From: Gallionella sp.
Lineage (GTDB): Bacteria > Pseudomonadota > Gammaproteobacteria > Burkholderiales > Gallionellaceae
Assembly: GCA_025350405.1 (NCBI GenBank)
Contig: JANXXX010000056.1
Location: 2,103 to 66,102 of the forward strand
Direction: 5' to 3'
DNA length: 64,000 nt
Positions 43,440-54,988 of this stretch are shown piece by piece. The notes beneath the pieces are model-generated. The model searched no databases, was not told the DNA's origin, and was given only the letters and a program-made list of their open reading frames with translations. Position numbers and translations under genes: made by a program. Within the stretch, counting starts at the first letter, position 1. Every line of letters begins with the position of its first letter.

Positions 43440-43766
43440 ATGACCAAGATGCCCTATATCGTAACAGCATTATTGTTTGCTTCCATTTCCGTTGCCCAAG
43501 CTGCAGATACTGCCAAACAGCCAGTAGCCCAAGGTGCAGCCAGTGTCGACAAGAGCCTGAGCGACCATCCTAACCAAGGGCTGAAAACCGCATCTGAGCA
43601 TCTGAAAGAAAACGAGACGAAGATCGCGGAAAAACGCGCCGAAGCCGGAGAGAAGCGCGAGAACGCCAAGCACAAAAAGGACAAAGAAGAAAAACATGAA
43701 CACATGGCTAAGCACGAGCATGAGAAAATGGAGCACCATGAAAAAATGGAACGTTCAGGCAAGTAA
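43440..43766 (+). CDS. secreted His/Lys/Glu-rich protein
   Basis: AAAGGAG RBS and signal peptide MTKMPYIVTALLFASISVAQA. The C-terminal tract is KHKKDKEEKHEHMAKHEHEKMEHHEKME. Confidence 0.7.
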   Translation: MTKMPYIVTALLFASISVAQAADTAKQPVAQGAASVDKSLSDHPNQGLKTASEHLKENETKIAEKRAEAGEKRENAKHKKDKEEKHEHMAKHEHEKMEHHEKMERSGK

Positions 43767-43827: not shown

Positions 43828-44580
43828 ATGAAAAAATTACTCATCAAGTTGGTCATGCTTACCAACTTGACTCCGGCACTTGCTGAAGGCCAAGTCAGCT
43901 TGAGCACAGGATTCGATTTCAGCTCGGGTAAATACGGCGGTACAGCATCAACCGACATCTTGTACATTCCCGTCACTGGCAAATATGAAACCGACAATTT
44001 GACTCTGAAGCTCACCGTCCCATACATCAGAATCACTGGTCCTGGCGGCGTTGTTCAGGGAGTTGGTCCTATCGTCCAGACTATGGGTCCAGCAAAGACA
44101 GTCGATTCCGGTTTGGGTGATATCGTCGCTTGGGCTGGCTACAATGTTTACTCCGGAGGCACCCGCGCATTTGATGTGGTCGGCAAGATCAAGTTTGGGA
44201 CGGCAGATGCCAACAAAGGATTGGGAACCGGCCTGAATAGTTATTCGGCGCAACTCGATGGCTACGATACTTTCGGCAAGACCACGTTTTTTGTGACGGC
44301 AGGCTACAGGATTTATGAGACGTCCACGGCTATTATTTTGAACAACGTTCCCTACGGCACGCTAGGTGCTAGCCATAAATTGGGCAACGCAAGCAGTGCG
44401 GGAGTGATGCTGGATGTGGCACAAAGCCCTAGTGCCACCAGTTCAGGCCAGCGGGAGGTGACGGGCTTTATCTCGCACAAGGTTTCATCAAGCTTTAAAG
44501 TGCAGGCGAATGTCATGAAAGGATTTTCCAGCGGCAGCCCCGATTTTGGCTACGGTGCCATGATTACCAGTTACTTCTGA
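43828..44580 (+). CDS. outer-membrane beta-barrel channel (MetA-pathway / transporter-like family)
   Basis: 250 aa with a signal peptide, alternating beta-strand pattern, the LKLTVPYIRITGPGG motif and a terminal aromatic (SYF). Confidence 0.7.
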   Translation: MKKLLIKLVMLTNLTPALAEGQVSLSTGFDFSSGKYGGTASTDILYIPVTGKYETDNLTLKLTVPYIRITGPGGVVQGVGPIVQTMGPAKTVDSGLGDIVAWAGYNVYSGGTRAFDVVGKIKFGTADANKGLGTGLNSYSAQLDGYDTFGKTTFFVTAGYRIYETSTAIILNNVPYGTLGASHKLGNASSAGVMLDVAQSPSATSSGQREVTGFISHKVSSSFKVQANVMKGFSSGSPDFGYGAMITSYF

Positions 44581-44588
44581 GTCAGGAT

Positions 44589-47219
44589 TTAAACCGGCTT
44601 CTGAATCCAGAACTGGTACATGCCGAAAAATGTGTCAGGGTTTTCATTCTCAAAGATCTGCCACTGGCTAAGGTTGGTGGCGGCGCGATCATCCGGGAAA
44701 CGCAGTCTATAGGCATGCAGGACATCGTCTTCGATTTCAAATCCCAGAAACGCCAGATTATTTTTCTTGAGAAATGCTTCGATGTCCGTCAGCGTCATAC
44801 GATGTTCCTGAACGTGAATCAGTAAATCACGGCAATTGCTGATGCTGAAAAAATCGGAGGATTTTAATGTGGTGCCGAAATTGGCAGTCTTGTCCAAAGC
44901 GATCAAATCTTCGCGGCAGCGCCGGATTTCATTGGCCGTCTCGGTATAGCCACGCTGGGTAATAAGATTCCTTACCCGAACGATGTTGCGCCGTGCCACC
45001 TCGCTATAAAAACCGAGTTTCATAAACCCGCCGGGATGCAGCAATGACAACAGCACTTGCCACCCAGCCCATGGGTCAGCAAGGTGGTGCAGCACTCCGA
45101 CAGATTCAATCACATCGAAGCTGCGACCCAGTGAACCCAGCTTGAGGATGTCGGCCTGCGCGTATTCAATCGAAGTCAAACCCAGTTCGTGTGTCTTGCG
45201 CTTGGCGTAACCAAGACTACTGATGCTCAGGTCGATGGCCAGTATCCGCGCCCCTGGAAATCGCTGTGCCGTACCGATTGAATGCTGGCCTGTGCCGCAA
45301 CCGGCAATCAACATGTCAATAGCGTTGCCCGTATCGTGGCGTTTGATAGAAACCAGAGGAAACTTCTGGCGCAAATAACCGGTGATGTTTTTTGCTTTTC
45401 CGGCGGGCTCCATCCTTGTCCAGCGCGGGTAAGGATTTTCTTCATATTGATTCTGAACCAGCAGAGATACCTTGTCTTCGATGTCAGTCAAATGAGAAAT
45501 ACTAGCGCGCAATTGCAGTTCTTCTGCTGGCTCGCGAACCTGTAGTGTCAGCAAGGCTGTGATTGCATTTGGCCATTGGGCATCCAATAATCGGGCGGCA
45601 AGCGGGAGCTCATAGAGCGGGAAATAGGCCGCTACTGCAACTAGACTAAGGGGTGGTACCGGAGTCTTGGCTTCCAGCGCTGCGATCAGAGCATCCCGCA
45701 AAACACTGGCTTGCTGGATTTCATCATCACCGTGAGAAAATACATATTCATTGATGAAACACTGGCGTGCCAAGGCGCTGTAAAAACTTAATGTCGTGTC
45801 CATCCCACCATTGGAAGCTGGGGTTTTGGCAGCGGCATCAAGCATGGCATGCCGCGCCATAGTCAAAAAACGTTCCATCTCAATGTCGCAGATGGGAGCA
45901 GAATCGAGCAGGGCAGACAGCAATGAGTTTGCTGCGAGGGTCGTGATGCTGTTTGACCCGAACAAATCCTGTGCAGACAGCCGCACAGGCCAGGCATCGA
46001 CTGCGCGCGAAACGCATTTGCCGATGTCAAGATTGAGCTTGGCGAGGCCGATGCAAATCAGGGCCAGTTCGCTTGGCCGACCCCAAGGCTCGGTCAAGGC
46101 GCGAACCATCAGCGCACGAATCTCGTTGTCATCATTTGTGAAACGCAGGCGTTTGACGCAGGCGACAAAAATGCTTTTTGCTTCTGCCGTTTCTTTGATC
46201 TGCAGCGAATGCTTGATCGTGTTCAAGGCCATCGATGCCTTGCCTTGCGTATTAAAGAGCAACGCGAGATTGTTCAGCGCACCGGTGAAGTCCGGCTTGA
46301 TCTGCAAGGCACGTTTGAAAAGGGTTTCAGCCTCATCCAATTTGCCCAACTCTTGCAGGGTGGAGCCCAGGTTGTTCAGTGCTTCGGCATAATCCGGCTT
46401 GATTTGCAACGCCCGTCGGTAATTGGCTTCGGCCTCGTCCAGTTTGCCCAACTCTTGCAGGGTAGAGCCCAGGTTGCTCAGCGCCTCGGCGTAATCCGGC
46501 CTGATTTGTAGCGCCCGCTTATAACTGGCCTCAGCCTCGTCCATTCGAGCCAACTCACTAAGGGTGATGCCCAGGTTGTAGTGCGCCTCAGCGTAATCTG
46601 GCTTGATCTGTAGAGCCCGTCGATAACGGGCTTCCGTCTCCGCTAATCGCCCCATGTCTTTGAGGGTGTTGCCGAGGTTGTTGTGTGTTTCGGCGAAATC
46701 CGGAGCAATTTGTAACGCCCGCTGATAACTGGCTTCTGCCTCATTCAGGCGACCCATATCGTGAAGAGTGATGCCCAAGTTGCAATGTGCCTCCGCGATA
46801 TTAGGCTCGATTTGCAACACCCGCCGGTAACTTGATTCGGCTTCATCCAAGCGACCCATTGCATGGAGGGCATTGCCCAGATTGTAATGCACCTCGATAA
46901 AATCCGGTGCTATCTGTATCGCTCTTCGGCAGCTAGTCACGGCTTCGTCCAGTTGGCCCAAATCCTGAAAGATGGCGCCCAGATTGCTATGCGCCTCGGC
47001 ATCATGCGGCAACAGCGCGGCCGCCTTTTGCATGGGCAACAGCGCGTCTTCGCTGCGTCCCATGTTCTTGAGCGCAACACCCAACGCCTTCCAGCCAACT
47101 CCATAAGAAGGAAAGCGCACCGTCATCGCTTGAGCGAAGGTTGCTGCTTCTGTGTAGCGGCCCTCTGTAAACAGAGTGGCCAGTGTATTCATCTCTTGAG
47201 GGTTGGGGTTTTGCGGCAC
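44589..47219 (-). CDS. TPR-repeat protein with C-terminal class I SAM methyltransferase domain
   Basis: 876 aa with about ten 34-aa TPR units (A..Y.RALQI.PD.AEA..NLG) and methyltransferase motif I LIAGCGTGQH. Confidence 0.85.
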   Translation of the reverse strand: MPQNPNPQEMNTLATLFTEGRYTEAATFAQAMTVRFPSYGVGWKALGVALKNMGRSEDALLPMQKAAALLPHDAEAHSNLGAIFQDLGQLDEAVTSCRRAIQIAPDFIEVHYNLGNALHAMGRLDEAESSYRRVLQIEPNIAEAHCNLGITLHDMGRLNEAEASYQRALQIAPDFAETHNNLGNTLKDMGRLAETEARYRRALQIKPDYAEAHYNLGITLSELARMDEAEASYKRALQIRPDYAEALSNLGSTLQELGKLDEAEANYRRALQIKPDYAEALNNLGSTLQELGKLDEAETLFKRALQIKPDFTGALNNLALLFNTQGKASMALNTIKHSLQIKETAEAKSIFVACVKRLRFTNDDNEIRALMVRALTEPWGRPSELALICIGLAKLNLDIGKCVSRAVDAWPVRLSAQDLFGSNSITTLAANSLLSALLDSAPICDIEMERFLTMARHAMLDAAAKTPASNGGMDTTLSFYSALARQCFINEYVFSHGDDEIQQASVLRDALIAALEAKTPVPPLSLVAVAAYFPLYELPLAARLLDAQWPNAITALLTLQVREPAEELQLRASISHLTDIEDKVSLLVQNQYEENPYPRWTRMEPAGKAKNITGYLRQKFPLVSIKRHDTGNAIDMLIAGCGTGQHSIGTAQRFPGARILAIDLSISSLGYAKRKTHELGLTSIEYAQADILKLGSLGRSFDVIESVGVLHHLADPWAGWQVLLSLLHPGGFMKLGFYSEVARRNIVRVRNLITQRGYTETANEIRRCREDLIALDKTANFGTTLKSSDFFSISNCRDLLIHVQEHRMTLTDIEAFLKKNNLAFLGFEIEDDVLHAYRLRFPDDRAATNLSQWQIFENENPDTFFGMYQFWIQKPV

Positions 47220-47551: not shown

Positions 47552-48847
47552 TTATTTGAAATCCCGATGCAACGTCAGCGAAAAATCGGTTTGGTCATAT
47601 TGATTAACGATGATATTGGATTGATTTTGTATCAGACTGATTTGCGGACGCAGAATCCAGTTGGGCGCGTAACGATATGTTAATCCGATTGCGAGATCAG
47701 CTTGATGGTCATCTCGCATAACTAAAAAGGCACCGTTGATCCGGTCATATTTGCCCCGCTGCACGCCGCCAGAAGCAAACAAATCCAGTTTTTCTCCTAA
47801 TGATACTTGCCCGGACAGACGCACACCTTGAATGCTTTTGCTGCCATCGGTGCGCAGATTGGTATCGTGTTCATTGCCGCCAAAGAAGCTGCCGAAAACA
47901 GTAGAACGTCCATCGGCAAAAATATGCATCCAGCCCAATCCGGAAATCGTCTGATTGAAATTGTTGGATACCAACGTCGGGTCGGGATAGCGGTAGAGAA
48001 TATACTGGCCGAACCATACCGCCTGATTGGCCACATTAAAGGTATGCTTCCATGCTAAATTAACGCCGTTGGAATTACGGTTTACAACCCCACCCAAGTC
48101 AAATCGTCCGGCTAGCAAGCCACCCTGAATCTGTTCTGCGTTTCTGTCGAAACTCGCGCCAACCCGGCTATCCAGTGAGATGTAATCAAAATGATTGTAT
48201 TTTACATTGTTGCGGCTGTGCATATCCACGCCGGCATACAAAGACCAATCCGTGGAAATTGGATGAATAGCCTCACCACCTACAGCCAGCGCCAAATAAT
48301 TGTCGGCTGTTTTAACGTTTGCTGGGTTCAAGGTGAATTGAATATCCAGCAGAGCGGGCACGGTAATTTGGTTTTGTCCGGTGGCATTGTTGACATTGTT
48401 GTTATAACCGGCACCCGCCTCGAAATAAGCGCTTAACCGGGTCGTCGGTATATCGTCCGGGGTTTCGATTGCACTAAGGTACTGATTGATCGTGGCTAGT
48501 GCTGACGGCGGTGGATTCAATGCAAGTGCACGCGTGAATTCGGTACGGGCGTGTTCAAAATCGCCCAGAAGGTAATAGGCTCGTCCCAGGTCAAGCCGTG
48601 CCGCAGCGTGCAATGGGTTTACCGCCAATACGCGCTCCAGGATCAAGCTCGCCTTGTCCGCCTGGCCACTGTTCAGTGCCGCCACTCCCAAGAGATAGTC
48701 GAATTTCGTGTTGCCCGCTTGTTCAAACTCGTAGGGTTCAAGCAGGGCATAAGCCTCTGCCGGTTTGCCTTCCACAATCAACTTGTGAGCCAGCTCAAGG
48801 TCAGGGCTGTCGGCTCTGGCGTTGGAGGGAACAAATCCCAAGCTCAC
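47552..48847 (-). CDS. Slam/DUF560-like outer-membrane protein (periplasmic TPR plus beta-barrel), type XI secretion-like
   Basis: N-terminal TPR region (AEAYALLEP...LGRAYYLLGDFEHARTEF) followed by about 300 aa of alternating beta-strands. A signal-peptide-like sequence (IIKPAKHLFAFLLLVSLGFVPSNARA) is encoded in frame upstream of the GTG at 48847 but has no canonical start. Confidence 0.65.
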   Translation of the reverse strand: MSLGFVPSNARADSPDLELAHKLIVEGKPAEAYALLEPYEFEQAGNTKFDYLLGVAALNSGQADKASLILERVLAVNPLHAAARLDLGRAYYLLGDFEHARTEFTRALALNPPPSALATINQYLSAIETPDDIPTTRLSAYFEAGAGYNNNVNNATGQNQITVPALLDIQFTLNPANVKTADNYLALAVGGEAIHPISTDWSLYAGVDMHSRNNVKYNHFDYISLDSRVGASFDRNAEQIQGGLLAGRFDLGGVVNRNSNGVNLAWKHTFNVANQAVWFGQYILYRYPDPTLVSNNFNQTISGLGWMHIFADGRSTVFGSFFGGNEHDTNLRTDGSKSIQGVRLSGQVSLGEKLDLFASGGVQRGKYDRINGAFLVMRDDHQADLAIGLTYRYAPNWILRPQISLIQNQSNIIVNQYDQTDFSLTLHRDFK

Positions 48848-48914
48848 CAGTAGCAGGAAGGCAAAAAGGTGTTTTGCGGGTTTGATGATGTTATTTTTAT
48901 TTAATCAGGGACGT

Positions 48915-49020
48915 GATAATACCACTGCCCCAGCTACCGCCTATCCAGTTGTTGTGCTCATTATCGAGACAATACCGCTGCCCCGGCTACAGCCTGTCCG
49001 GTTGTCGTGCTCATTATGAA
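48915..49020. repeat. 53-bp tandem duplication spanning the 3' end of the FecR-domain gene
   Basis: 48915-48967 and 48968-49020 align with about 8 mismatches. The intact copy encodes IMSTTTGQAVAGAAVLSR-stop. The extra copy reads IMSTTTG-stop-AVAGAVVLSRP. Confidence 0.85.
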
Positions 49021-50751
49021 GGAAGAAATCAGCCCTTTACCATTCGGCCCAATCAGCATGCCCGCTGCGCTACCGCTTGCGCTTACTGTCGAGCCGCAAA
49101 CACAGGTACCGGCAAGCGGTATGCCATTCGCAAAAGTGGAAAGTGGTGCTGAACCACTAAAAATTCCATTCCAGCTTCGAGAATTGCCATCTGTCACACC
49201 GAGATTGTAGTTGGTCACAGTGGCCGTACCAAGATCGATAGTCACACTTAGACTTACGCCGCTGTTGCTGCGATTGATATTGCCTGATTCTGTTACTGAA
49301 GTAGAACCGACTATAGATGAAAATGTAGCGGAACCGCCTATGGCACTGATGGCCGCTGGCGAAGTGGCTCCTCCATTAACATAAGCAAACGGATGAAAAT
49401 CGACCGCGAGCGCATTTCCTGCGGCGTCGAAAGTGACTCCGCCCGCATAGATGCCCCATGACACGTCGACTGTATCCACATTCGCCGTCTTGTAATCGAT
49501 CAAGGTCGTTTGATGGTCAACGTAATTGAAGCCAGTGGCATCATTGGAGTAGGCGCTAGGCTCATAATGTTCCACGAGCAGCTTTTCTCCGGCGTTCCCA
49601 ACCTTGGCGCTCCCGACACTCCGCAAACCCAAGTGGGCACCAACGACCGCACTTCCCGACACAGCCGGTGATGCATCCGTCTCCAAAGTGCTAAGATCCA
49701 CTGAGCTATTGTCTATGAGGTCAGTCTGGGTAAGTTTGTTTTGATCTGTCTTCCCTGCGGAGGTAGAAGATTCACTTGTTGTTTTCGAATCCACCACCGC
49801 ATTTCCTGGCCCAGCAGGCAAGGCGATTGTCTCCAACGAGCTGCTATCCCCGCTGCTGTTAGCCAAGTGCTCGGTCTTGTCGGGATTGCGCGGTATCGAG
49901 TCTGACCTGGAATCACTCGAGCCGGTCACCCCTTCCTTGTCATGGAGGAGTTTGTTCGCGTCGCCGTGGTTGCCTTTGAGTTCTTTTGAATTGGCTTTTG
50001 GATCGCCAAATATCGGCAATATTTTATCCATGATAATTGGGCTAGTACCGCTGAGCGCCGCGAAGCCGGTTTGATTCGGCTTGATCAGCAACTTATCCTG
50101 CCCGCTTTGCAGTATGGTTGCACCGGAAATTACGTGGTTATAGGTTCCCGGCTCGACCACGGACGTCTGTCCTGGTGGAGCTATGGCTACAAATACGGTT
50201 TCATGGTCTGTACCGCGTATTCCGACCGTGGCATTGGGCGTGCGGATGCTGTAATTTTCCTTGTGCAGATGACCGATATTGCCAGTGACGGCACGGAATC
50301 CGCCGGCTAACAGTGTTAAAGCGATATGTTCGTTCCCGTCCTGTTTGCCGTTGTAAGCGAAAGATTCGATTACTAGCTGGCTTTCCGGGCGTAGCACAAT
50401 CGTTCCGCCATCTTCCATGCGTAACTGCAACGTTGCACCTTTGCCGGATTTCAGCGTATCGCCGACCTGCACGGCCCCACCTTTAGTGAGCGACCGGACC
50501 TGTCCCAGATTTTGCGCTTGGACTTGGCCGATGATAAACAGCACCTTACCGGCAAGCGTTGGCATGGCGGAATCGTCGTTCGGACGCAAGCCAGTGCCAC
50601 CGATGCCACCGTGCATGGCCGGTGTTCCGGTTCCGCCGATGCCGCCCTCTTTTAAGGAGTCACTAGCGGCGAGCGCATTTCCGGCGATAAGCCCGCCCAG
50701 AAATAACGCCGCGATTATTAACAGTCTATTTCTCAAGAGTGTCATCGCCAT
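48961..50751 (-). CDS. secreted FecR-domain protein with Ser/Thr-rich linker and TbpB-like C-terminal beta-barrel (candidate Slam cargo)
   Basis: - Signal peptide MTLLRNRLLIIAALFLGGLIAGNALA.
- GIGGTG repeats.
- FecR-like segment VGDTLKSGKGATLQLRMEDGGTIVLRPESQLVI...IRTPNATVGIRGTDH.
- C-terminus with the G.A.F...VSLSVTIDLGTATV...GMLIGPNGKGLISSF....GQAVAGAAVLSR pattern.
- The start is ambiguous (50763, 50751 or 50745). Confidence 0.7.
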   Translation of the reverse strand: MAMTLLRNRLLIIAALFLGGLIAGNALAASDSLKEGGIGGTGTPAMHGGIGGTGLRPNDDSAMPTLAGKVLFIIGQVQAQNLGQVRSLTKGGAVQVGDTLKSGKGATLQLRMEDGGTIVLRPESQLVIESFAYNGKQDGNEHIALTLLAGGFRAVTGNIGHLHKENYSIRTPNATVGIRGTDHETVFVAIAPPGQTSVVEPGTYNHVISGATILQSGQDKLLIKPNQTGFAALSGTSPIIMDKILPIFGDPKANSKELKGNHGDANKLLHDKEGVTGSSDSRSDSIPRNPDKTEHLANSSGDSSSLETIALPAGPGNAVVDSKTTSESSTSAGKTDQNKLTQTDLIDNSSVDLSTLETDASPAVSGSAVVGAHLGLRSVGSAKVGNAGEKLLVEHYEPSAYSNDATGFNYVDHQTTLIDYKTANVDTVDVSWGIYAGGVTFDAAGNALAVDFHPFAYVNGGATSPAAISAIGGSATFSSIVGSTSVTESGNINRSNSGVSLSVTIDLGTATVTNYNLGVTDGNSRSWNGIFSGSAPLSTFANGIPLAGTCVCGSTVSASGSAAGMLIGPNGKGLISSFIMSTTTGQAVAGAAVLSR

Positions 50752-51577
50752 GATCCACCTCACTGAAATTGTAAATGCCGAAATTTGTCCGGTAGACAGC
50801 TTCGGATTTTCCTGCGTCCTGTTTTTGCAACTCTATCGCGCGACGGTTCACCGTGTGCAACGCGCGCATTCCGGCTGTTTTGGCAACGCGTTCATACTCC
50901 TTGACCGACTCTGCTGTGAGATTGTCGTAATACACGCATCGTTCAAGGAGGGGCGGTGTAACACCGACTAGATTATGTACTGTGGCGGCAAGGTGGTCGT
51001 GGATATTTTGCCCAAAATAAAACGTTTTTTCCTCAAGCCCTTGAGGGGAGACAAAGGCGTCGGCAGTTAGATGCACATTGTCCTGTTCGTCCAGCGTAGC
51101 GATTCCCTGCCGTAACCATTCGTCCAGTACAACGCGAGCGCGAAAATCCTTGCTTACCGAACGCACCAGCGCTTCAAAAGAATGATCGCCGCCTTTGCTG
51201 GCTAATCGCGGCAACGGCAGCGGTACGCCATGTTCATCGAGATATTCAGCCCGTCCGCTCCACATCGCCAGTAACTGCGCACTCATGGAAGCCTGCAGGG
51301 AGAGGCTGCTTACAGCCAGTGATTCATTGCGCAAACGCTTGACGTCGCGTCTGTGCACACCGGTCAGCAGGCTGATGCGGCTGTCGGTTTGAGCCTTGTT
51401 ATCAAGCCTGAACTCTTCTTCTGCAATCTGGATGTAAGTTGATTTAACCAAATCGCAAAATGTCTGGAATCGGATACCGTGGGAGAGTAATAAACGAATC
51501 AGCGGCCGTAAAACCCGCCGCAGTGCAGCCACGAGTGGTGTGGGCAATTCACCGGTAACTTTCTCAAGGTTATTCAT
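50726..51577 (-). CDS. cytoplasmic HTH-containing protein, candidate regulator (possibly DUF6502-like)
   Basis: 283 aa with no TM segment and the helix-turn-helix-like segment TDSRISLLTGVHRRDVKRLRN. It overlaps the start of the downstream FecR-domain gene. Confidence 0.6.
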   Translation of the reverse strand: MNNLEKVTGELPTPLVAALRRVLRPLIRLLLSHGIRFQTFCDLVKSTYIQIAEEEFRLDNKAQTDSRISLLTGVHRRDVKRLRNESLAVSSLSLQASMSAQLLAMWSGRAEYLDEHGVPLPLPRLASKGGDHSFEALVRSVSKDFRARVVLDEWLRQGIATLDEQDNVHLTADAFVSPQGLEEKTFYFGQNIHDHLAATVHNLVGVTPPLLERCVYYDNLTAESVKEYERVAKTAGMRALHTVNRRAIELQKQDAGKSEAVYRTNFGIYNFSEVDHGDDTLEK

Positions 51578-51630
51578 ATATGCAATTCCCTAACAAAATA
51601 TCATTAAAGATACCTTACCACAAAAAACAC

Positions 51631-51692
51631 TTGACGTGTGTAAATATTACACGTAATATGCATCAACTGTGTGTTATTTGCACACGTATAAT
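51631..51692 (+). promoter_or_regulatory. tandem promoter/operator modules in the divergent intergenic region
   Basis: TTGACG (51631-36), 17 nt, TAATAT (51654-59), with the palindrome GTGTAA-ATA-TTACAC (51638-52) in the spacer. A second module has GTGTG-N7-CACAC (51669-85) directly before TATAAT (51687-92). Confidence 0.6.
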
Positions 51693-51723
51693 GTGATTGG
51701 CTGACCTATCAAAGGAGGACAAC

Positions 51724-51879
51724 ATGAAAGATTTATGCATCGCTACGGTTTTTATATTAAGTGCGATATTCGCTGTTACGGCAATAAGTTCAGCTGCTAG
51801 CGCATTCGCTAATGCCCCGGTTGTTTCTAAAACAGGGCCGCAAAATTCTGTTGCAAGCCGCCATACAAAATATATTTGA
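51724..51879 (+). CDS. Sec-signal prepeptide (51 aa, predicted 22-aa mature peptide)
   Basis: AGGAGG RBS 6-7 nt upstream. MKDLCIATVFILSAIFAVTAISSAASAFA followed by NAPVVSKTGPQNSVASRHTKYI. Confidence 0.6.
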   Translation: MKDLCIATVFILSAIFAVTAISSAASAFANAPVVSKTGPQNSVASRHTKYI

Positions 51880-51898
51880 GAAATGAAAGGAGAATGAA

Positions 51899-52093
51899 AT
51901 GTCCTTAATGATTGATACGCTGAACTCAACACCGACTGCCGAAGAGTCGAGTAATTCAGACAAGCTGAAAGTGCAAAAAAGCATCGGGGAATCAACTAGC
52001 AAAATACTTAAACCGAACGGTTTGACTGAGATATCAATTTTTGATTATGCGGAACTCAGGAATTATATCTACGGCGTCAACGGACGGTACTAA
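51899..52093 (+). CDS. 64-aa minimised paralogue of the cNMP-binding protein at 24778-25263
   Basis: AAGGAG RBS. It shares the N-terminus (MSLMIDTL), a middle segment (ILKPNGLTEISIF) and the C-terminus (ELRNYIYGVNGRY) with the 161-aa protein. Confidence 0.7.
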   Translation: MSLMIDTLNSTPTAEESSNSDKLKVQKSIGESTSKILKPNGLTEISIFDYAELRNYIYGVNGRY

Positions 52094-52150
52094 AAAATAC
52101 AATTAATAAGTGTAATCTATTAAAAAACATCACTTAGAAGGAGCAGCAAA

Positions 52151-52276
52151 ATGAACAACAAATGCAACGAAATATCTATTAACAACACAAAACAAAAAGA
52201 TGGCCAGTTTCATATTGCCCTTGCTTGGCTTGCTGCCTTGTCGGTGTCGGTAGCTGCGTGGACGTGTCTTTCTTGA
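52151..52276 (+). CDS. 41-aa single-TM microprotein (below the ORF-track cutoff)
   Basis: GAAGGAG RBS 8 nt upstream of ATG 52151. MNNKCNEISINNTKQKDGQFHIALAWLAALSVSVAAWTCLS, stop TGA at 52274-76. Confidence 0.5.
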   Translation: MNNKCNEISINNTKQKDGQFHIALAWLAALSVSVAAWTCLS

Positions 52277-52369
52277 TAGGTTTCCAGCAAAGTAAAGCTG
52301 CATGCAGCGGTGAAATACATATCCACGTCACACCAATATAAACTTTATTAACTTGAAGGAGATTTAAAA

Positions 52370-52819
52370 ATGAAAAATGTAAACAAAATGTTTTTTGTAG
52401 TTGCAAGTACCGGGATTTTATCGATCATGTCTTTTGCTGCAATTGCAGATTCGTCTGCTCATATCACTTTGGAAAAAATGATTCAAATAAATACTGAAAA
52501 ACAACTTGCAGCAGAAGGAAATAAATATGCTCAATTAGTTTTACTTGCGGGAAGCAGGAAAGATGAGCTGGTAACAAAAAAGAATGAAGCCGCTAGCGCG
52601 TATAAAAAATGGCGCGATTTAAAATTCGCCGCAGTATCTCACTATCCGAATTACAACGATTTTACGGATGTTAGAGCAGCTGCGAAAACATATTCGCAGG
52701 CTAATAAAGCTTTTGTCGATTTACAAAAGAATATCCTTGCACAAAAGGCGGCTCCGCTAGATCCGGTAGCGATAAATGCGCTTATTGTCACCTCACCGAC
52801 AGCAGTTGGAACGAAATAA
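52370..52819 (+). CDS. secreted helical protein, unknown function
   Basis: GAAGGAG RBS and signal peptide MKNVNKMFFVVASTGILSIMSFAAIA. Lys/Ala-rich helical sequence. Confidence 0.7.
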   Translation: MKNVNKMFFVVASTGILSIMSFAAIADSSAHITLEKMIQINTEKQLAAEGNKYAQLVLLAGSRKDELVTKKNEAASAYKKWRDLKFAAVSHYPNYNDFTDVRAAAKTYSQANKAFVDLQKNILAQKAAPLDPVAINALIVTSPTAVGTK

Positions 52820-52852
52820 TCGCCGAAATCAGGTAGCTAAATTCAAAATCAG

Positions 52853-52874
52853 AACGGGGGCTTCGGCTCCCGTT
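52853..52874. terminator. bidirectional hairpin terminator
   Basis: AACGGGGGC-TTCG-GCTCCCGTT. There is a T-run on the minus strand (CTGATTTTGAATTT) and a weaker TTTGT on the plus strand. Confidence 0.6.
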
Positions 52875-53020
52875 TGTACTACAGGGGCATTCATCAACAT
52901 TTCTAACAATCGTTGCAGCACGCCAGTTGGCAATGATTGTTTGAAAGTCGTGCGAAACGCGCTGCACTAGCGGGTTCAGTTCTATTGGCCGCACGCATTG
53001 CACTTGGTAGTCAGTGACTA

Positions 53021-54988
53021 TCACTCCCACCGTGCGGTCAGCATACGATCGCGCCTGTTCTCGGCAAGACGCAGCATGTACGCACAGTCTTCGCGATGTA
53101 TGGTAATGCCCCGGTCGCGCGTGACGTAGCCGATGATCTCATCCCCCGGTGCTGGCTTGCAGCATTTGCCGATACGCGTCATCAGGTTATTCACGCCGCC
53201 GACGGTGATGTCTGCTTTTGCGGTACGGTCAGTCGCGGGGCGGAATATCTTTTGCTTGGCGGTTTCTATTGGCTTGGTCGGCAGCTCTTCCTTAATCGCG
53301 ATGGCGATGCGCCGCATGGTGATCTCGTTGCGCCCGATGGCGGCAAGAAAATCGTCCGGTTTATTGAAGTGCAATCGCTGCGCGAGCTTTTCCTGATTGA
53401 TCGAGGTGATGCCGAGCCGGTGTAGTTCGCGATCCAGTTGCGCTCTGCCTTGTGCAATGTTTTCATCAAGGTTCTGGCTCTTGAACCAGGCACGCACTCT
53501 GGCGCGCGCACGCGCGCTTTGCAGGAGGCCGAGCGAGGGGTTGATCCAGTCGCGGCTTGGCCCGCCTTGTTTGGTGGTGAGGATTTCCACGCGTTGGCCG
53601 TTCTGCAATTTGTAACTGAGCGGCACGATGCTGCCATCTACCTTGGCGCCGCGCGTGCGGTGTCCCAGGTCGGTGTGCAGCGTGTAGGCGAAATCCACCG
53701 GGGTCGCGCCTTTAGGCAGGTCGATTACTTTGCCCTGTGGGGTGAGCACGTAAACCTGGTCATGGAACAATTCGTTTTTGAATTGCTCCTGCAAATCACC
53801 CTGATCAGCCAGATCTTCTTGCCACTGCAAAATCTGGCGCAGCCAGGCAATTTTTTCCTCGAACTCGGTGTCGGATTTTCCGCCTTCCTTGTAACGCCAA
53901 TGCGCGGCGACACCGAGCTCGGAATGCTGATGCATCTCGCGGGTGCGTATCTGCACCTCGAGCGCAAGGCCGCGCGGGCCGACCACGGCGGTGTGCAGCG
54001 AGCGGTAGTGGTTGCTCTTGGGGTGGGCGATGTAATCGTCGAATTCGCCGTCAATCGGCAGCCACAGTTCATGCACCAAGCCAAGCGCGGTGTAACAGGC
54101 CCCAATACCATCGACAAGGCTATCGTCGACGAGTATCCGCACTGCACGCACGTCGTAGAGCTCGTTGAAATCCAGCTGCTTGCGCTTCATCTTGTTGATG
54201 ATGCTGTAGATGTGTTTGGGGCGTCCGGTCACCTCGGCGGATATGCCGGCCTGGCCCAATGACTGTTTCAACTGCGCCAATACGTCGGCGATGTATTGCT
54301 CGCGATCAACCCTGCGCTCATCCAGCAGCTTCGCGACCTTCCTGTACAACTCCGGTTCCAGAAAGCGCACCGAGAGATCCTCCAGTTCCCATTTGAGTTG
54401 CCACACGCCGAGACGGTTGGCCAGCGGCGCAAAAATGCTACGGGTTTCCTGGGCGATCTGTTTCTGAAGTTCAGGGTCTGCGCCGGACAGGTTGCGCATG
54501 GTCTGGGTGCGTTCGGCGAGTTTGATCAGCACCACGCGGATGTCCTGCACCATCGCCAGCAACATCTTGCGCAGGCTTTCGATCTGCTGTGCGGCTTCGT
54601 TCTTGTCCTTTGCTCCGCGCACTTCGCTGAACAAACGTATTCGTTCCATGCGCGAAATACCTTCGACCAGCATCTTCACATTGGCGCCGAAATCCTGTCC
54701 GAGTTCTTCTTCCCAATTGTCCAGAAACGCGGGCACCGCATGCAGGATCGTGGCGGCGATGGTTTCATGATCCATGTGCATGCCGACCAGGATGGCAGCT
54801 GCGCCGAGCGCGTGTTGCAATAACGGGGTTCTGGTGAGTTCGACTTGTCCGGCGTAGAGCGGCTCAGCCAATGCGCAGGCCTTGCGTATCACCTCAGCTT
54901 CTGCGGGAGCAAAAGTTTGTGAAATGGCATCAAGCCAGGTTTGGATATTCTCGAATGATACAGATGATTTTTGATCGGTAGAAACCAT
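53021..54988 (-). CDS. relA: GTP pyrophosphokinase RelA (long RSH) lacking the C-terminal ACT/RRM domain
   Basis: 655 aa with a degenerate HD region (no HD dyad), synthetase domain, TGS (YVLTPQGKVIDLPKGATPVDFAY) and zinc-finger domain CCKPAPGDEIIGYVTRDRGITIHREDC. It stops at ...LTARWE. Confidence 0.88.
   Translation of the reverse strand: MVSTDQKSSVSFENIQTWLDAISQTFAPAEAEVIRKACALAEPLYAGQVELTRTPLLQHALGAAAILVGMHMDHETIAATILHAVPAFLDNWEEELGQDFGANVKMLVEGISRMERIRLFSEVRGAKDKNEAAQQIESLRKMLLAMVQDIRVVLIKLAERTQTMRNLSGADPELQKQIAQETRSIFAPLANRLGVWQLKWELEDLSVRFLEPELYRKVAKLLDERRVDREQYIADVLAQLKQSLGQAGISAEVTGRPKHIYSIINKMKRKQLDFNELYDVRAVRILVDDSLVDGIGACYTALGLVHELWLPIDGEFDDYIAHPKSNHYRSLHTAVVGPRGLALEVQIRTREMHQHSELGVAAHWRYKEGGKSDTEFEEKIAWLRQILQWQEDLADQGDLQEQFKNELFHDQVYVLTPQGKVIDLPKGATPVDFAYTLHTDLGHRTRGAKVDGSIVPLSYKLQNGQRVEILTTKQGGPSRDWINPSLGLLQSARARARVRAWFKSQNLDENIAQGRAQLDRELHRLGITSINQEKLAQRLHFNKPDDFLAAIGRNEITMRRIAIAIKEELPTKPIETAKQKIFRPATDRTAKADITVGGVNNLMTRIGKCCKPAPGDEIIGYVTRDRGITIHREDCAYMLRLAENRRDRMLTARWE

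What the first reader, a model, noticed from the sequence alone, without database searches (positions are those of the whole stretch)
47552..52874. Type XI secretion (Slam/DUF560)-like locus with a FecR-domain cargo, an HTH regulator and a divergent operon of four small proteins
**Seen in the sequence.** One minus-strand operon encodes three proteins.
- An HTH-containing cytoplasmic protein (50726-51577).
- A secreted 600-aa protein (48961-50751). It has GIGGTG repeats, a FecR-like domain, a Ser/Thr-rich linker and a C-terminal region with a TbpB-handle-like strand pattern. The linker holds two copies of an S.LET.A.PA..G.AVV unit.
- A TPR plus beta-barrel outer-membrane protein (47552-48847).

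Divergently, four short genes each carry a strong GAAGGAG-type RBS: a Sec prepeptide, a 64-aa cytoplasmic protein, a 41-aa TM microprotein and a 149-aa secreted helical protein.

**Established knowledge.** Slam/DUF560 proteins export neighbouring cargo that carry a C-terminal 8-stranded barrel, such as TbpB, fHbp or hemophilin-type proteins.

**Inference.** A FecR sensor-type domain as the exported module, wired to an HTH regulator and a small-peptide operon, is not a combination I know to be described. It could be a surface signalling or peptide-sensing module. The whole block is AT-richer than its flanks and sits against a truncated relA.
Basis: partly seen in the sequence, partly recalled or inferred. 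Interest (0 to 1): 0.8.

Follow-up and report, generated by a model that had tools for sequence, protein, structure and literature searches.

The report
Secretion operon exporting a FecR-type protein
An uncultured iron-oxidiser-type bacterium carries a conserved three-gene operon: a DNA-binding regulator of a so-far uncharacterised family, a secreted FecR-type protein with a transferrin-binding-protein-like tail, and a Slam/type 11 secretion outer-membrane protein; this cargo type and regulator have not been described for that secretion system.

Summary
The minus-strand operon encodes three proteins.
- DUF6502 (112.7 bits).
- A 596-aa Sec protein: GIGGTG repeats, FecR domain, disordered linker, and a C-terminal handle plus 8-strand barrel. 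That C-terminal part matches TbpB, fHbp, hemophilin and NHBA by fold only.
- A TPR + 14-strand barrel OMP that passes Pfam SlipAM/DUF560.

The triad recurs in more than 10 MAGs at 44-90% identity. The C-terminal domain is rare: 137 clusters among 1.84 billion representatives. It is almost always fused to FecR (77 of 79) and sits beside DUF560-type OMPs. In a derived clade the domain and the OMP are lost together.

New findings:
- DUF6502 is always translationally coupled to an exported GxGGTG-repeat protein.
- DUF6502 is preceded by paired palindromic operators (CGTGTG-N7-CACACG) that change to CGTGGGAA..TTCCCACG in distant DUF6502 lineages. It is therefore most likely an autoregulator.
- The OMP appears to start at a conserved non-canonical ATC codon.
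- The four small divergent genes are conserved only in close relatives.

The biological function is unknown. I class this as a new variant of a known kind, with interest of about 0.6.

The parts
50726..51577 (-). DUF6502 protein (283 aa), cytoplasmic. It has an HTH-like segment (QTDSRISLLTGVHRRDVKRLR, residues ~63-83) and an invariant LDEWLRQG block. Proposed autoregulator of the operon.
   Evidence: Pfam PF20112 at 112.7 bits. It is the most conserved of the three genes. Its stop overlaps the cargo start by 26 nt.
48961..50751 (-). Cargo gene (596 aa): Sec signal peptide, 2x GIGGTG, FecR-type beta domain, disordered linker, TbpB-C-lobe-like C-terminal domain.
50590..50643 (-). Two GIGGTG repeats (residues 37-42 and 49-54), directly after the predicted signal-peptide cleavage site (ALA|AS).
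   Evidence: Alignment. The repeats occur in every protein downstream of DUF6502 in types A, B and C. They are absent from 72 of 79 other proteins carrying the C-terminal domain.
50008..50571 (-). FecR-type beta-sandwich domain (residues ~61-248).
   Evidence: Pfam FecR at 37.8 bits. AF2 pLDDT is about 90. Foldseek matches anti-sigma BDI_1681 (4m0n) and the PupR periplasmic domain (6ovk).
49705..50004 (-). Disordered Ser/Thr/Asp-rich linker (residues ~250-349). Its length varies between homologues, and it contains a partial duplicate of the start of the C-terminal domain.
   Evidence: pLDDT below 50. Length variation is seen.
48964..49698 (-). C-terminal domain (residues ~352-596): beta handle/pedestal plus 8-strand barrel, ending ...GMLIGPNGKGLISSFIMSTTTGQAVAGAAVLSR. 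Proposed T11SS targeting domain.
   Evidence: AF2 pLDDT is 88-97 with 8 terminal strands. Foldseek matches TbpB, fHbp, hemophilin and NHBA. There is no Pfam or PDB sequence hit. It is rare and FecR-linked.
47552..48889 (-). Outer-membrane protein of the DUF560/SlipAM (T11SS) type. The listed ORF starts at GTG 48847, but the signal peptide lies upstream of that. The probable start is ATC at 48889-48887 or 48886-48884.
48464..48799 (-). Periplasmic TPR region of the OMP (7 helices, residues 17-128 of the 431-aa ORF).
   Evidence: Pfam TPR_19, TPR_2 and TPR_16; AF2 helices.
47558..48439 (-). 14-stranded beta-barrel of the OMP (residues 137-430).
   Evidence: Fourteen long strands in the AF2 model, pLDDT above 90. 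The SlipAM match covers residues 144-430. Foldseek hits are BcsC, PelBC, FadL and OmpG.
51634..51654 (.). Operator-like palindrome 1 (ACGTGTGTAAATATTACACGT), proximal to DUF6502. It overlaps the -35-like TTGACG of the plus-strand promoter and is followed, on the minus strand, by GTCAAG.
51669..51687 (.). Operator-like palindrome 2 (GTGTGTTATTTGCACACGT), 33-35 bp from palindrome 1 and directly upstream of a TATAAT.
51612..51622 (-). Extended -10-like element (TGTGGTAAGGT on the minus strand) for the DUF6502 operon. Its position after palindrome 1 plus a T-run is conserved in related loci.
   Evidence: Inspection of aligned upstream regions. This is inferred, not tested.
51724..51879 (+). Small gene 1 (51 aa): hydrophobic N-terminus and a conserved C-terminal H.NSV..H.KYI.
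   Evidence: conserved in L007, L009, L011, L013.
51899..52093 (+). Small gene 2 (64 aa), no signal peptide.
   Evidence: L007, L001/L008, L012.
52151..52276 (+). Small gene 3 (41 aa), C-terminal transmembrane segment.
52370..52819 (+). Small gene 4 (149 aa): signal peptide, then a helical Lys/Ala-rich protein.
   Evidence: L007, L001/L008.

Best explanation
This is a type 11 (Slam/DUF560-class) outer-membrane secretion pair serving a cargo family that has not been described, placed under a dedicated DUF6502 transcription factor.

Proposed mechanism:
1. DUF6502 binds as a dimer to the two palindromes in the 146-bp divergent promoter region. It thereby controls its own operon and the divergent small genes. 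This step is inferred.
2. The cargo is made in step with DUF6502, because their stop and start overlap. It crosses the inner membrane by Sec, and its signal peptide is removed. It has no lipobox, so it is soluble like hemophilin.
3. The TPR + 14-strand barrel OMP recognises the cargo's C-terminal TbpB-C-lobe-like handle and barrel and passes the cargo across the outer membrane, C-terminus first. This is inferred by analogy with Slam1 and TbpB.
4. The FecR-type beta-sandwich, carried on a long flexible linker, is the working ('effector') module. FecR domains are protein-protein interaction modules in envelope signalling.
5. The OMP is probably made in small amounts from a weak ATC start codon.

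Shown here: the domain content, the folds, the conservation and the co-loss pattern. Inferred: DNA binding, export, and the biological role.
For: OMP:
- PF04575 scores above the gathering threshold over the full model, with TPR families alongside.
- The AF2 model has pLDDT 91.3, with 7 helices and 14 strands.

Cargo:
- FecR domain by Pfam.
- The C-terminal 240 aa are confidently modelled.
- The best PDB fold matches belong to four different known T11SS cargo families (TbpB/TbpB C-lobe, fHbp, hemophilin, NHBA). TbpB 3ve1 scores E = 1.8e-6.

Linkage between OMP and cargo:
- The triad is conserved at 44-90% identity in unrelated flanks.
- OMP homologues at 41-48% identity also sit next to FecR-N-terminal proteins with the same type of C-terminus, in the opposite gene order and without DUF6502.
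- The C-terminal domain occurs in only 137 representative clusters, nearly always at the extreme C-terminus. Of 79 full-length members, 77 carry FecR.
- Type B relatives lack both the C-terminal domain and the OMP. They form a derived clade in the FecR-domain tree.

Regulator:
- DUF6502 has an HTH-like motif that is invariant across the family.
- The paired palindrome GTGTG-N6-9-CACAC lies at -70 to -120 in most type A and B loci, against a background of 0.07 per kb.
- Distant DUF6502 lineages have CGTGGGAA-N-TTCCCACG in the same layout.

Translocation model: the C-terminus-first passage of unfolded cargo comes from PMC9090332.
Against: - No experiment exists, and every carrier found is an uncultured MAG.
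- The C-terminal domain has no sequence-level similarity to TbpBBD or Lipoprotein_C families, nor to any PDB chain. The TM-scores are modest, 0.2-0.45, partly because a two-domain model was the query.
- No Slam structure is in the PDB. The OMP's best fold hits are polysaccharide exporters and generic 14-strand barrels.
- The SlipAM score is only 9 bits above threshold.
- The OMP lacks a canonical start codon in this genome.
- DUF6502 DNA binding is inferred from motif co-variation only, and its fold was not modelled.
- In most Gallionellaceae the DUF6502-FecR pair works without any T11SS parts. The FecR module's partner may therefore be periplasmic, which fits full export poorly.
Confidence: 0.62

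Rival explanations
1. Threaded trans-outer-membrane tether. The C-terminal domain is exported and folds on the surface. The FecR domain folds in the periplasm and stays there, and the disordered linker runs through the OMP channel. The protein would then link a surface-exposed binding domain physically to a periplasmic FecR signalling module.
For: - Slam cargo must be unfolded and is engaged through its C-terminus (PMC9090332).
- Type B paralogues keep GxGGTG-FecR without the barrel domain or OMP, so the FecR module appears to act in the periplasm.
- Related cargos sit beside CHASE2 sensor cyclases, whose sensor domain is periplasmic.
- A Burkholderia operon couples an exported LysM-FecR protein to a CHASE2 kinase.
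- All homologues have a long disordered linker.
- There is weak similarity between residues 74-144 and the LapA/MpIBP retention module, which works in exactly this way.
Against: - No T11SS cargo is known to remain threaded; TbpB and hemophilin are exported completely.
- The similarity to the retention module is below threshold (25.9 bits against a cutoff of 50; E = 0.014).
- Nothing here shows that the FecR domain folds before translocation.
- Linker length varies 4-fold, which points to a spacer and not to a fitted trans-membrane segment.
Confidence: 0.15
2. There is no secretion. The OMP is a channel or scaffold, for instance for polysaccharide or a small solute. The FecR protein is a periplasmic accessory that docks onto the OMP's TPR domain through its beta-rich C-terminal domain.
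For: - The top Foldseek hits of the OMP are BcsC and PelBC, which are TPR + barrel polysaccharide exporters.
- One distant homologue lies among glycosyltransferase and polysaccharide-synthesis genes (L070).
- The SlipAM score is marginal.
- Pfam DUF560 is known to pick up PgaA-like proteins (PMC8406197).
Against: - The barrel has 14 strands, as predicted for Slams, not the 16 of PgaA or BcsC.
- The cargo's C-terminal domain matches four families of proven T11SS cargo by fold.
- The window locus contains no glycosyltransferase or synthase genes.
Confidence: 0.1
3. A FecIRA-like cell-surface signalling cascade. DUF6502 plays the part of the sigma factor, the FecR protein is its anti-factor, and the OMP is the transducer.
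For: - The gene order, regulator then FecR-domain protein then OM barrel, mirrors fecI-fecR-fecA.
- The regulator and the FecR gene overlap, as in many sigma/anti-sigma pairs.
Against: - The FecR protein has only about 9 residues before its hydrophobic segment. It has no cytoplasmic anti-sigma domain, and it has a canonical A-x-A cleavage site.
- DUF6502 has no Sigma70_r2 or Sigma70_r4 match.
- The OMP is not a TonB-dependent transducer.
Confidence: 0.04
4. The locus is decaying and non-functional in this genome. Signs are the missing OMP start codon, the duplicated 3' end of the cargo gene, and a position next to a broken relA.
For: - There is no ATG, GTG or TTG ahead of the OMP signal peptide.
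- A relic 53-nt duplicate lies after the cargo's stop codon.
- relA is truncated.
Against: - All three ORFs are intact and full-length. They are 70-93% identical to their nearest homologues, with no internal stops.
- The ATC ATC arrangement directly behind an in-frame stop recurs in four separate lineages, which argues for a conserved unusual start and against decay.
Confidence: 0.07

Closest known systems
Slam1/Slam2 with TbpB, LbpB, fHbp, HpuA (Neisseria; T11SS cluster 1)
   Same: - The OMP combines an N-terminal TPR region with a DUF560 barrel predicted to have 14 strands.
- The cargo is encoded next door.
- The cargo carries a C-terminal handle plus 8-strand barrel, and fold matches include TbpB and fHbp.
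- The cargo is exported by Sec first.
   Different: - The cargo here is not a lipoprotein.
- Its C-terminal domain has no sequence similarity to TbpBBD or Lipoprotein_C.
- The effector is a FecR-type domain, not a transferrin- or factor H-binding lobe.
- The host is a free-living uncultured betaproteobacterium.
- No TonB-dependent receptor is linked.
- The system is regulated by DUF6502, not by Fur or iron.
Hemophilin-type soluble T11SS cargo (HphA/Hpl/HrpC with HsmA/HrpB)
   Same: - The cargo is soluble, Sec-dependent and non-lipidated.
- It has an N-terminal functional domain and a C-terminal barrel, and hemophilin 7re4 is among the fold hits.
- OMP and cargo form a gene pair.
   Different: - There is no heme-binding clamp.
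- A linker of ~100 residues and GIGGTG repeats are present.
- The FecR domain points to protein-protein interaction and not to ligand scavenging.
T11SS cluster 3 (marine) with DUF1194 partners (Grossman et al. 2025, PMC12282271)
   Same: It is an environmental, non-host-associated DUF560 OMP whose co-occurring partner differs from the classical cargo.
   Different: Cluster 3 rarely co-occurs with a C-terminal barrel. Here the barrel-type domain is present and tracks the OMP.
FecI-FecR-FecA cell-surface signalling
   Same: - The FecR periplasmic-type beta domain is present (Pfam PF04773; fold matches to PupR and BDI_1681).
- The gene order is regulator, then FecR protein, then OM barrel.
   Different: - There is no ECF sigma factor.
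- There is no transmembrane or anti-sigma N-terminal domain.
- There is no TonB-dependent transducer.
Burkholderia 'BiofilmReg' operon: CreB-like response regulator, LysM-FecR exported protein (COG4254), CHASE2 histidine kinase, DUF4136 (PMC5192318)
   Same: - A DNA-binding regulator gene overlaps the start of a gene for an exported FecR-domain protein.
- Relatives of the window's cargo are LysM-FecR fusions or lie next to CHASE2 sensors.
   Different: - The regulator there is a two-component response regulator with a kinase. Here it is DUF6502 with no kinase.
- The Burkholderia operon has no T11SS OMP or barrel domain.
LapA/MpIBP N-terminal retention module (T1SS adhesins)
   Same: - There is weak sequence resemblance to the first ~70 residues of the FecR-type domain.
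- Both share the concept of a folded N-terminal plug followed by a long extended region.
   Different: - The score is below the family threshold.
- The secretion system is different (T1SS through a TolC-like channel).
- No LapG/LapD genes are present.

Membership tests
T11SS / Slam outer-membrane protein (DUF560, PF04575) | Match to Pfam SlipAM above the gathering score | tested here: met
   31.0 bits against a cutoff of 22; residues 144-430 cover model positions 7-288 of 288. Many homologues also carry PF04575.
T11SS / Slam outer-membrane protein (DUF560, PF04575) | N-terminal periplasmic TPR domain | tested here: met
   TPR_19, TPR_2, TPR_16 and TPR_9 are above their cutoffs. The AF2 model has seven helices at residues 17-128.
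T11SS / Slam outer-membrane protein (DUF560, PF04575) | 14-stranded beta-barrel (as opposed to the 16 strands of PgaA-like proteins) | tested here: met
   The AF2 model (pLDDT 91.3) has 14 long strands at residues 137-430. This is a prediction only, because no Slam structure is in the PDB for comparison.
T11SS / Slam outer-membrane protein (DUF560, PF04575) | Sec signal peptide on the OMP | tested here: inconclusive
   A good signal peptide is encoded in frame (KPAKHLFAFLLLVSLGFVPSNARA|D), but it lies upstream of the first ATG, GTG or TTG. It needs an ATC start, an arrangement conserved in four lineages.
T11SS / Slam outer-membrane protein (DUF560, PF04575) | OMP-dependent surface exposure or release of a neighbouring cargo | not testable with these tools
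   This requires co-expression and localisation experiments.
T11SS / Slam outer-membrane protein (DUF560, PF04575) | Placement in one of the ten published SSN clusters | not tested
T11SS cargo (TbpB / fHbp / hemophilin type) | Sec or lipoprotein signal peptide | tested here: met
   The N-terminus MAMTLLRNRLLIIAALFLGGLIAGNALA|AS is conserved across homologues. There is no lipobox. This was judged by inspection, as no SignalP run was possible.
T11SS cargo (TbpB / fHbp / hemophilin type) | C-terminal 8-stranded barrel preceded by a beta 'handle/pedestal' | tested here: met
   In the AF2 model, residues 360-460 form a sheet and residues 474-595 form 8 strands, with pLDDT 88-97. Foldseek matches TbpB 3ve1 (E = 1.8e-6), TbpB C-lobe 5kkx, fHbp, hemophilin 7re4 and NHBA 6cuj.
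T11SS cargo (TbpB / fHbp / hemophilin type) | Sequence membership in TbpBBD (PF01298), Lipoprotein_C or related Pfam families | tested here: not met
   The C-terminal 247 aa give no Pfam hit at E up to 10. The whole-protein profile search of PDB sequences, which also covers this domain, found no T11SS cargo chain.
T11SS cargo (TbpB / fHbp / hemophilin type) | Genetic linkage to a DUF560 OMP, with the two tracking each other in evolution | tested here: met
   They are adjacent in type A loci and in distant CHASE2-linked loci. They are lost together in type B.
FecR anti-sigma regulators (FecIRA cell-surface signalling) | FecR periplasmic domain (PF04773) | tested here: met
   37.8 bits against a cutoff of 24. 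Fold matches are 6ovk and 4m0n.
FecR anti-sigma regulators (FecIRA cell-surface signalling) | N-terminal cytoplasmic anti-sigma domain plus a single transmembrane helix | tested here: not met
   Only about 9 residues precede the hydrophobic segment, which ends in an A-x-A cleavage motif.
FecR anti-sigma regulators (FecIRA cell-surface signalling) | Partner ECF sigma factor and TonB-dependent transducer | tested here: not met
   The upstream gene is DUF6502 with no Sigma70_r2 or r4 match, and the downstream gene is a DUF560 OMP. The other neighbours scanned have no TonB-dependent receptor domain.
DUF6502 (PF20112) | Full-length match to the Pfam model | tested here: met
   112.7 bits; residues 15-276 cover model positions 4-266 of 268.
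DUF6502 (PF20112) | Sequence-specific DNA binding or autoregulation (proposed here; not part of the Pfam definition) | tested here: inconclusive
   The family has an invariant HTH-like motif. Paired palindromes lie upstream of DUF6502 in most loci, and their sequence changes with DUF6502 lineage. No binding assay was possible, and no structure was modelled.
LapA-type retention module (NF033682) | Score of at least 50 bits against the NCBIfam model | tested here: not met
   25.9 bits over residues 74-135. The PDB hit 5ix9 has E = 0.014 only.

The most novel reading that the evidence does not exclude
DUF560-type OMPs and their FecR-N/TbpB-like-C partners may form a previously unrecognised signalling route across the outer membrane. 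In this reading the C-terminal domain is displayed on the cell surface as a sensor or binding module. The disordered linker stays threaded through the OMP. The FecR domain reports in the periplasm to CHASE2 cyclases or kinases or, in the DUF6502-linked branch, to an as yet unseen partner that feeds back on the DUF6502 regulator. Type 11 'secretion' would then double as the assembly machine for a trans-envelope sensor.
Probability: 0.15. Interest if true: 0.85.

Novelty: new variant of a known kind. Interest (0 to 1): 0.6.

Why it matters
- **T11SS cargo range.** Only seven T11SS OMPs have verified cargo, and all come from host-associated cluster 1 (PMC12282271). This locus defines a compact family of environmental DUF560 OMPs. 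Their partner is recognisable by fold, but not by sequence, as barrel-type cargo, and its working domain is a FecR signalling module instead of a nutrient-binding lobe. The family therefore widens what T11SS is thought to export and gives a concrete test pair outside pathogens.
- **DUF6502.** The locus gives a testable function to DUF6502, which returned about 3,200 hits in the homologue search: an autoregulator with a defined operator. It also points to an unexplained universal link between DUF6502 and exported GxGGTG-repeat proteins.
- **FecR and CHASE2.** It connects exported FecR proteins with CHASE2 sensors, whose ligands are unknown.
- **Ecology.** The carriers are mainly uncultured Gallionellaceae-type iron oxidisers, whose envelope biology is poorly known.

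Tried and rejected
- **Exact-sequence contig look-up.** The 600-aa version of the cargo was not on record, because databases call the start 4 codons later.
- **Sequence searches of the C-terminal domain.** Pfam at E up to 10 on the C-terminal domain, and the whole-protein profile against PDB sequences, gave no relevant hit. Only the fold comparison was informative.
- **OMP against solved structures.** No Slam structure is available. The sequence profile hits only TPR proteins, and Foldseek gives generic barrels and BcsC/PelBC.
- **DUF6502 profile against PDB sequences.** Nothing meaningful was found.
- **A metal-sensing site in DUF6502.** The HDH and ERC motifs are conserved among close homologues. 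I rejected this idea because the Cys and the first His are not conserved family-wide.
- **FecIRA-type anti-sigma reading.** Rejected on domain content.
- **LapA retention-module membership.** The score is below threshold.
- **Small genes.** They have no family hits beyond a sub-threshold PtrA N-terminal match and a DUF4148 match. I found no evidence for a peptide-signalling role.
- **A DUF6502 operator upstream of the p250 gene in the window.** None was found.
- **Genomic-island hallmarks around 43.2-52.9 kb.** There is no tRNA and there are no flanking repeats.
- **A relA copy in related loci, to reconstruct the insertion.** None was found.

Full report
**1. Observation.**

- 50726-51577 (-): 283 aa.
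- 48961-50751 (-): 596 aa from the ATG, or 600 aa from an upstream GTG.
- 47552-48847 (-): 431 aa.
- Four short plus-strand genes, each behind an AGGAG-type ribosome-binding site.

Pfam confirms the three domain calls.
- DUF6502 scores 112.7 bits.
- FecR scores 37.8 bits, against a cutoff of 24.
- The third protein matches several TPR families. It also matches SlipAM/DUF560 at 31.0 bits (cutoff 22) over the whole model.

GC is 0.35-0.44 across the small genes and 0.47-0.54 across the triad, against 0.55-0.60 in the flanks.

relA (53021-54988) stops about 85-90 residues short of the RelA and SpoT models. An ACT-like remnant continues in another frame up to the edge of the AT-rich block. Its resemblance to the E. 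coli RelA ACT domain is from my memory of that sequence.

**2. The outer-membrane protein.**

A 68-sequence alignment gave an AlphaFold2 model with pLDDT 91.3. It has seven TPR-type helices at residues 17-128, followed by 14 long strands at residues 137-430. That is the architecture predicted for Slam/T11SS OMPs. The published network study used 14 against 16 strands to separate them from PgaA-like proteins (PMC8406197).

The PDB holds no Slam structure. Foldseek therefore returns TPR + barrel exporters (BcsC, PelBC) and 14-strand barrels (FadL, OmpG).

**3. The cargo.**

Forty-nine homologues align into five parts:
- a Sec signal peptide;
- 2-5 GIGGTG repeats;
- a conserved FecR-type domain;
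- a low-complexity linker of very variable length;
- a conserved C-terminal domain of ~240 residues.

The model shows two confident beta domains, at residues 66-241 and 360-596, separated by a disordered stretch at 250-349. The last eight strands (474-595) form the barrel.

The best Foldseek matches in the PDB are TbpB (E = 1.8e-6), the TbpB C-lobe, fHbp, hemophilin and the NHBA C-domain. All of these are proven or accepted Slam/T11SS cargos, as listed in PMC12282271. The N-domain matches the periplasmic domains of the FecR-type anti-sigma factors PupR and BDI_1681.

At sequence level the C-terminal domain matches no Pfam family and no PDB chain. Its membership of the cargo class therefore rests on fold and context, not on sequence.

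**4. Conservation and co-variation.**

The order DUF6502, then cargo, then OMP recurs at 44-55% cargo identity in three unrelated contexts.

A scan of GTDB representative genomes with a DUF6502 alignment gave 61 loci. All are MAGs. Most are Gallionella, Sideroxydans or other Gallionellaceae. The rest are Sulfuricella, Thiobacillaceae, Hydrogenophaga and some gamma- and alphaproteobacteria.

HMMs built from my own alignments sort these loci into three types.

| Type | Gene content | Where |
|---|---|---|
| A | Full triad: DUF6502, FecR cargo with C-terminal domain, DUF560 OMP | Window, L001-L015, L053 |
| B | DUF6502 plus a 325-390-aa signal peptide-GxGGTG-FecR protein; no C-terminal domain and no OMP | Most Gallionellaceae loci |
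| C | DUF6502 (38-50% identical) plus a lipoprotein with DUF5666 | Distant taxa |

OMP homologues at 41-48% identity are also followed by FecR-N-terminal proteins with the same kind of C-terminal ending. Those proteins are 531, 978 and 1274 aa long, plus one broken gene. Two of these loci have a CHASE2-guanylate cyclase directly upstream and no DUF6502.

An exhaustive profile search with the C-terminal domain alone found only 137 representative clusters among 1.84 billion. The domain is nearly always at the extreme C-terminus. Of 79 full-length members, 77 carry FecR and only 7 carry the GxGGTG repeats.

In a neighbour-joining tree of the FecR domains (no bootstrap), the repeat-bearing proteins form one clade nested among the repeat-less cargos. 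Type B is a derived subclade, and its basal member L043 still has a TPR OMP.

The C-terminal domain and the OMP are thus gained, kept and lost together. This is the strongest contextual argument that they work together.

**5. DUF6502 as regulator.**

DUF6502 is the most conserved gene of the three. Its stop overlaps the cargo start by 26 nt. Across 64 family members the invariant parts are an HTH-like segment (SR..L.G..R) and an LDEWLRQG block.

The 146-bp divergent intergenic region holds two imperfect palindromes 33-35 bp apart, at 51634-51654 and 51669-51687. They overlap promoter-like hexamers.

The same layout is present upstream of DUF6502 in every type A locus, including the 44%-identity Sulfuricella locus. 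The layout is a distal palindrome, then a proximal palindrome followed by GTCAAG, a T-run and TGTGnTAT.

The strict pattern GTGTG-N6-9-CACAC occurs at -70 to -120 in most type A and B loci, against a background of 0.07 per kb per strand. In the 64-kb window it occurs only here.

In type C loci the half-sites change to CGTGGGAA...TTCCCACG, while the number, spacing and GTCAAG tail are kept.

An operator that co-varies with the only constant neighbouring DNA-binding-type protein is good comparative evidence for autoregulation by DUF6502. It is not proof.

**6. What remains unexplained.**

GxGGTG repeats (1-7 copies) sit just behind the signal peptide or lipobox of the DUF6502-coupled protein in all three types. 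They are absent from the CHASE2-linked cargos. I cannot say why a cytoplasmic regulator is universally coupled to an exported repeat-bearing protein, or what either of them senses.

The FecR domain is a protein-interaction module in envelope signalling. Three observations point to a signalling role and away from a nutritional one:
- the CHASE2 linkage;
- the Burkholderia operon of a response regulator, a LysM-FecR protein and a CHASE2 kinase (PMC5192318);
- the T11SS-free type B pairs.

The Slam model holds that unfolded cargo is engaged through its C-terminus (PMC9090332). This leaves room for a threaded topology, which I rate at about 0.15.

**7. Small genes.**

All four small genes are conserved, but only in the nearest relatives. 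The 51-aa gene occurs in L007, L009, L011 and L013. The 64-, 41- and 149-aa genes occur in L007, L001/L008 and L012.

In other type A loci the divergent gene encodes a cytochrome c or a 569-aa protein. In type B it is a 250-aa secreted protein.

The small genes therefore share the operator-bearing promoter region but are an accessory, lineage-specific output. Nothing supports peptide sensing.

**8. Comparison and novelty.**

The locus works like a Slam/hemophilin-type T11SS pair, and the OMP meets the testable membership criteria. The cargo meets the structural and contextual criteria but not the sequence ones.

It is not a FecIRA system: there is no sigma factor, no anti-sigma domain and no TonB-dependent transducer.

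No paper in the library links DUF560 with FecR or mentions DUF6502. The T11SS cargo survey covers clusters 1 and 3 only, and it lists FecR merely as a co-occurring regulatory element alongside sigma-70 domains.

I class the locus as a new variant of a known kind. Interest is about 0.6. The case is solid and extends T11SS and DUF6502 biology, but the function is unknown and all carriers are uncultured.

Noticed in passing
window 48884-48907 (minus strand); also L001, L005, L009: The OMP's signal peptide is encoded upstream of the first ATG, GTG or TTG. Directly behind an in-frame stop (TGA at 48907-48905) lies a conserved ATC ATC (I-I-K/E-P). The same arrangement occurs in four separate lineages, while others have a normal ATG or a longer N-terminal extension with the same peptide. 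This suggests a conserved non-canonical AUC start codon, perhaps one that keeps OMP levels low.
   Followed up: partly
window 52880-54988 (minus strand): relA ends at 53021, about 85-90 residues short of full-length models, so the ACT/RRM region is missing. An ACT-like remnant continues in another reading frame and breaks off at the border of the AT-rich small-gene block. This looks like a frameshift plus a truncation by insertion, or possibly an assembly error.
   Followed up: partly
window 43828-44580 (+); L016-L043, L047, L054: A 250-aa secreted protein with no Pfam hit ends in ...ITSYF, like an outer-membrane barrel. Its homologues lie immediately divergent from DUF6502 in about 22 type B loci. 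It is therefore the usual divergent partner where the T11SS parts are missing. In the window it lies 6 kb from DUF6502, inside the same low-GC block, and has no recognisable operator.
   Followed up: partly
window 48912-49017: There is a tandem 53-nt duplication (85% identical) of the 3' end of the cargo gene. The upstream copy encodes the true C-terminus (...IMSTTTGQAVAGAAVLSR). The downstream copy is a relic containing a TAG, and it fills much of the 113-nt gap before the OMP gene.
   Followed up: no
L069 3683-5890 and L071 2918-5122: CHASE2-guanylate cyclase genes lie directly upstream of distant DUF560 OMP + FecR-cargo pairs. L071 also has FHA, PP2C, a phosphodiesterase and GAF proteins nearby. 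This suggests a link between this cargo family and cyclic-nucleotide signalling.
   Followed up: partly
L045-L067 (type C loci): In distant taxa the protein coupled to DUF6502 is a lipoprotein with GxGGTG repeats and DUF5666 in place of FecR. So the repeats, and not the FecR domain, are the constant partner feature of DUF6502.
   Followed up: partly
window 44589-47219 (minus strand): An 876-aa protein with about ten TPR repeats (34-aa, 102-nt tandem units at 46267-46980) and a C-terminal class I methyltransferase domain lies 330 nt downstream of the OMP on the same strand. Only a partial homologue is seen near one related locus (L013), so it is probably unrelated to the operon.
   Followed up: no
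window 43440-43766 (+): This is a 108-aa secreted protein, rich in Lys, Glu and His (HEHMAKHEHEKMEHHEKME). It is followed by a hairpin with a T-run and lies just upstream of the p250 gene. It may be a periplasmic metal-binding protein.
   Followed up: no
L007-L067 (genome-contig scan): All 61 DUF6502 loci recovered from GTDB species representatives are metagenome-assembled genomes; none is a cultured isolate. One MAG (CAIQPV01) carries both a type A locus (L010) and a type B locus (L042).
   Followed up: no
L069 7335-12492: The FecR-cargo gene next to the OMP is split. A 155-aa FecR fragment is followed by a frame change and then a 1283-aa ORF with the typical C-terminal ending. This is either a frameshifted pseudogene or an assembly error.
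   Followed up: no
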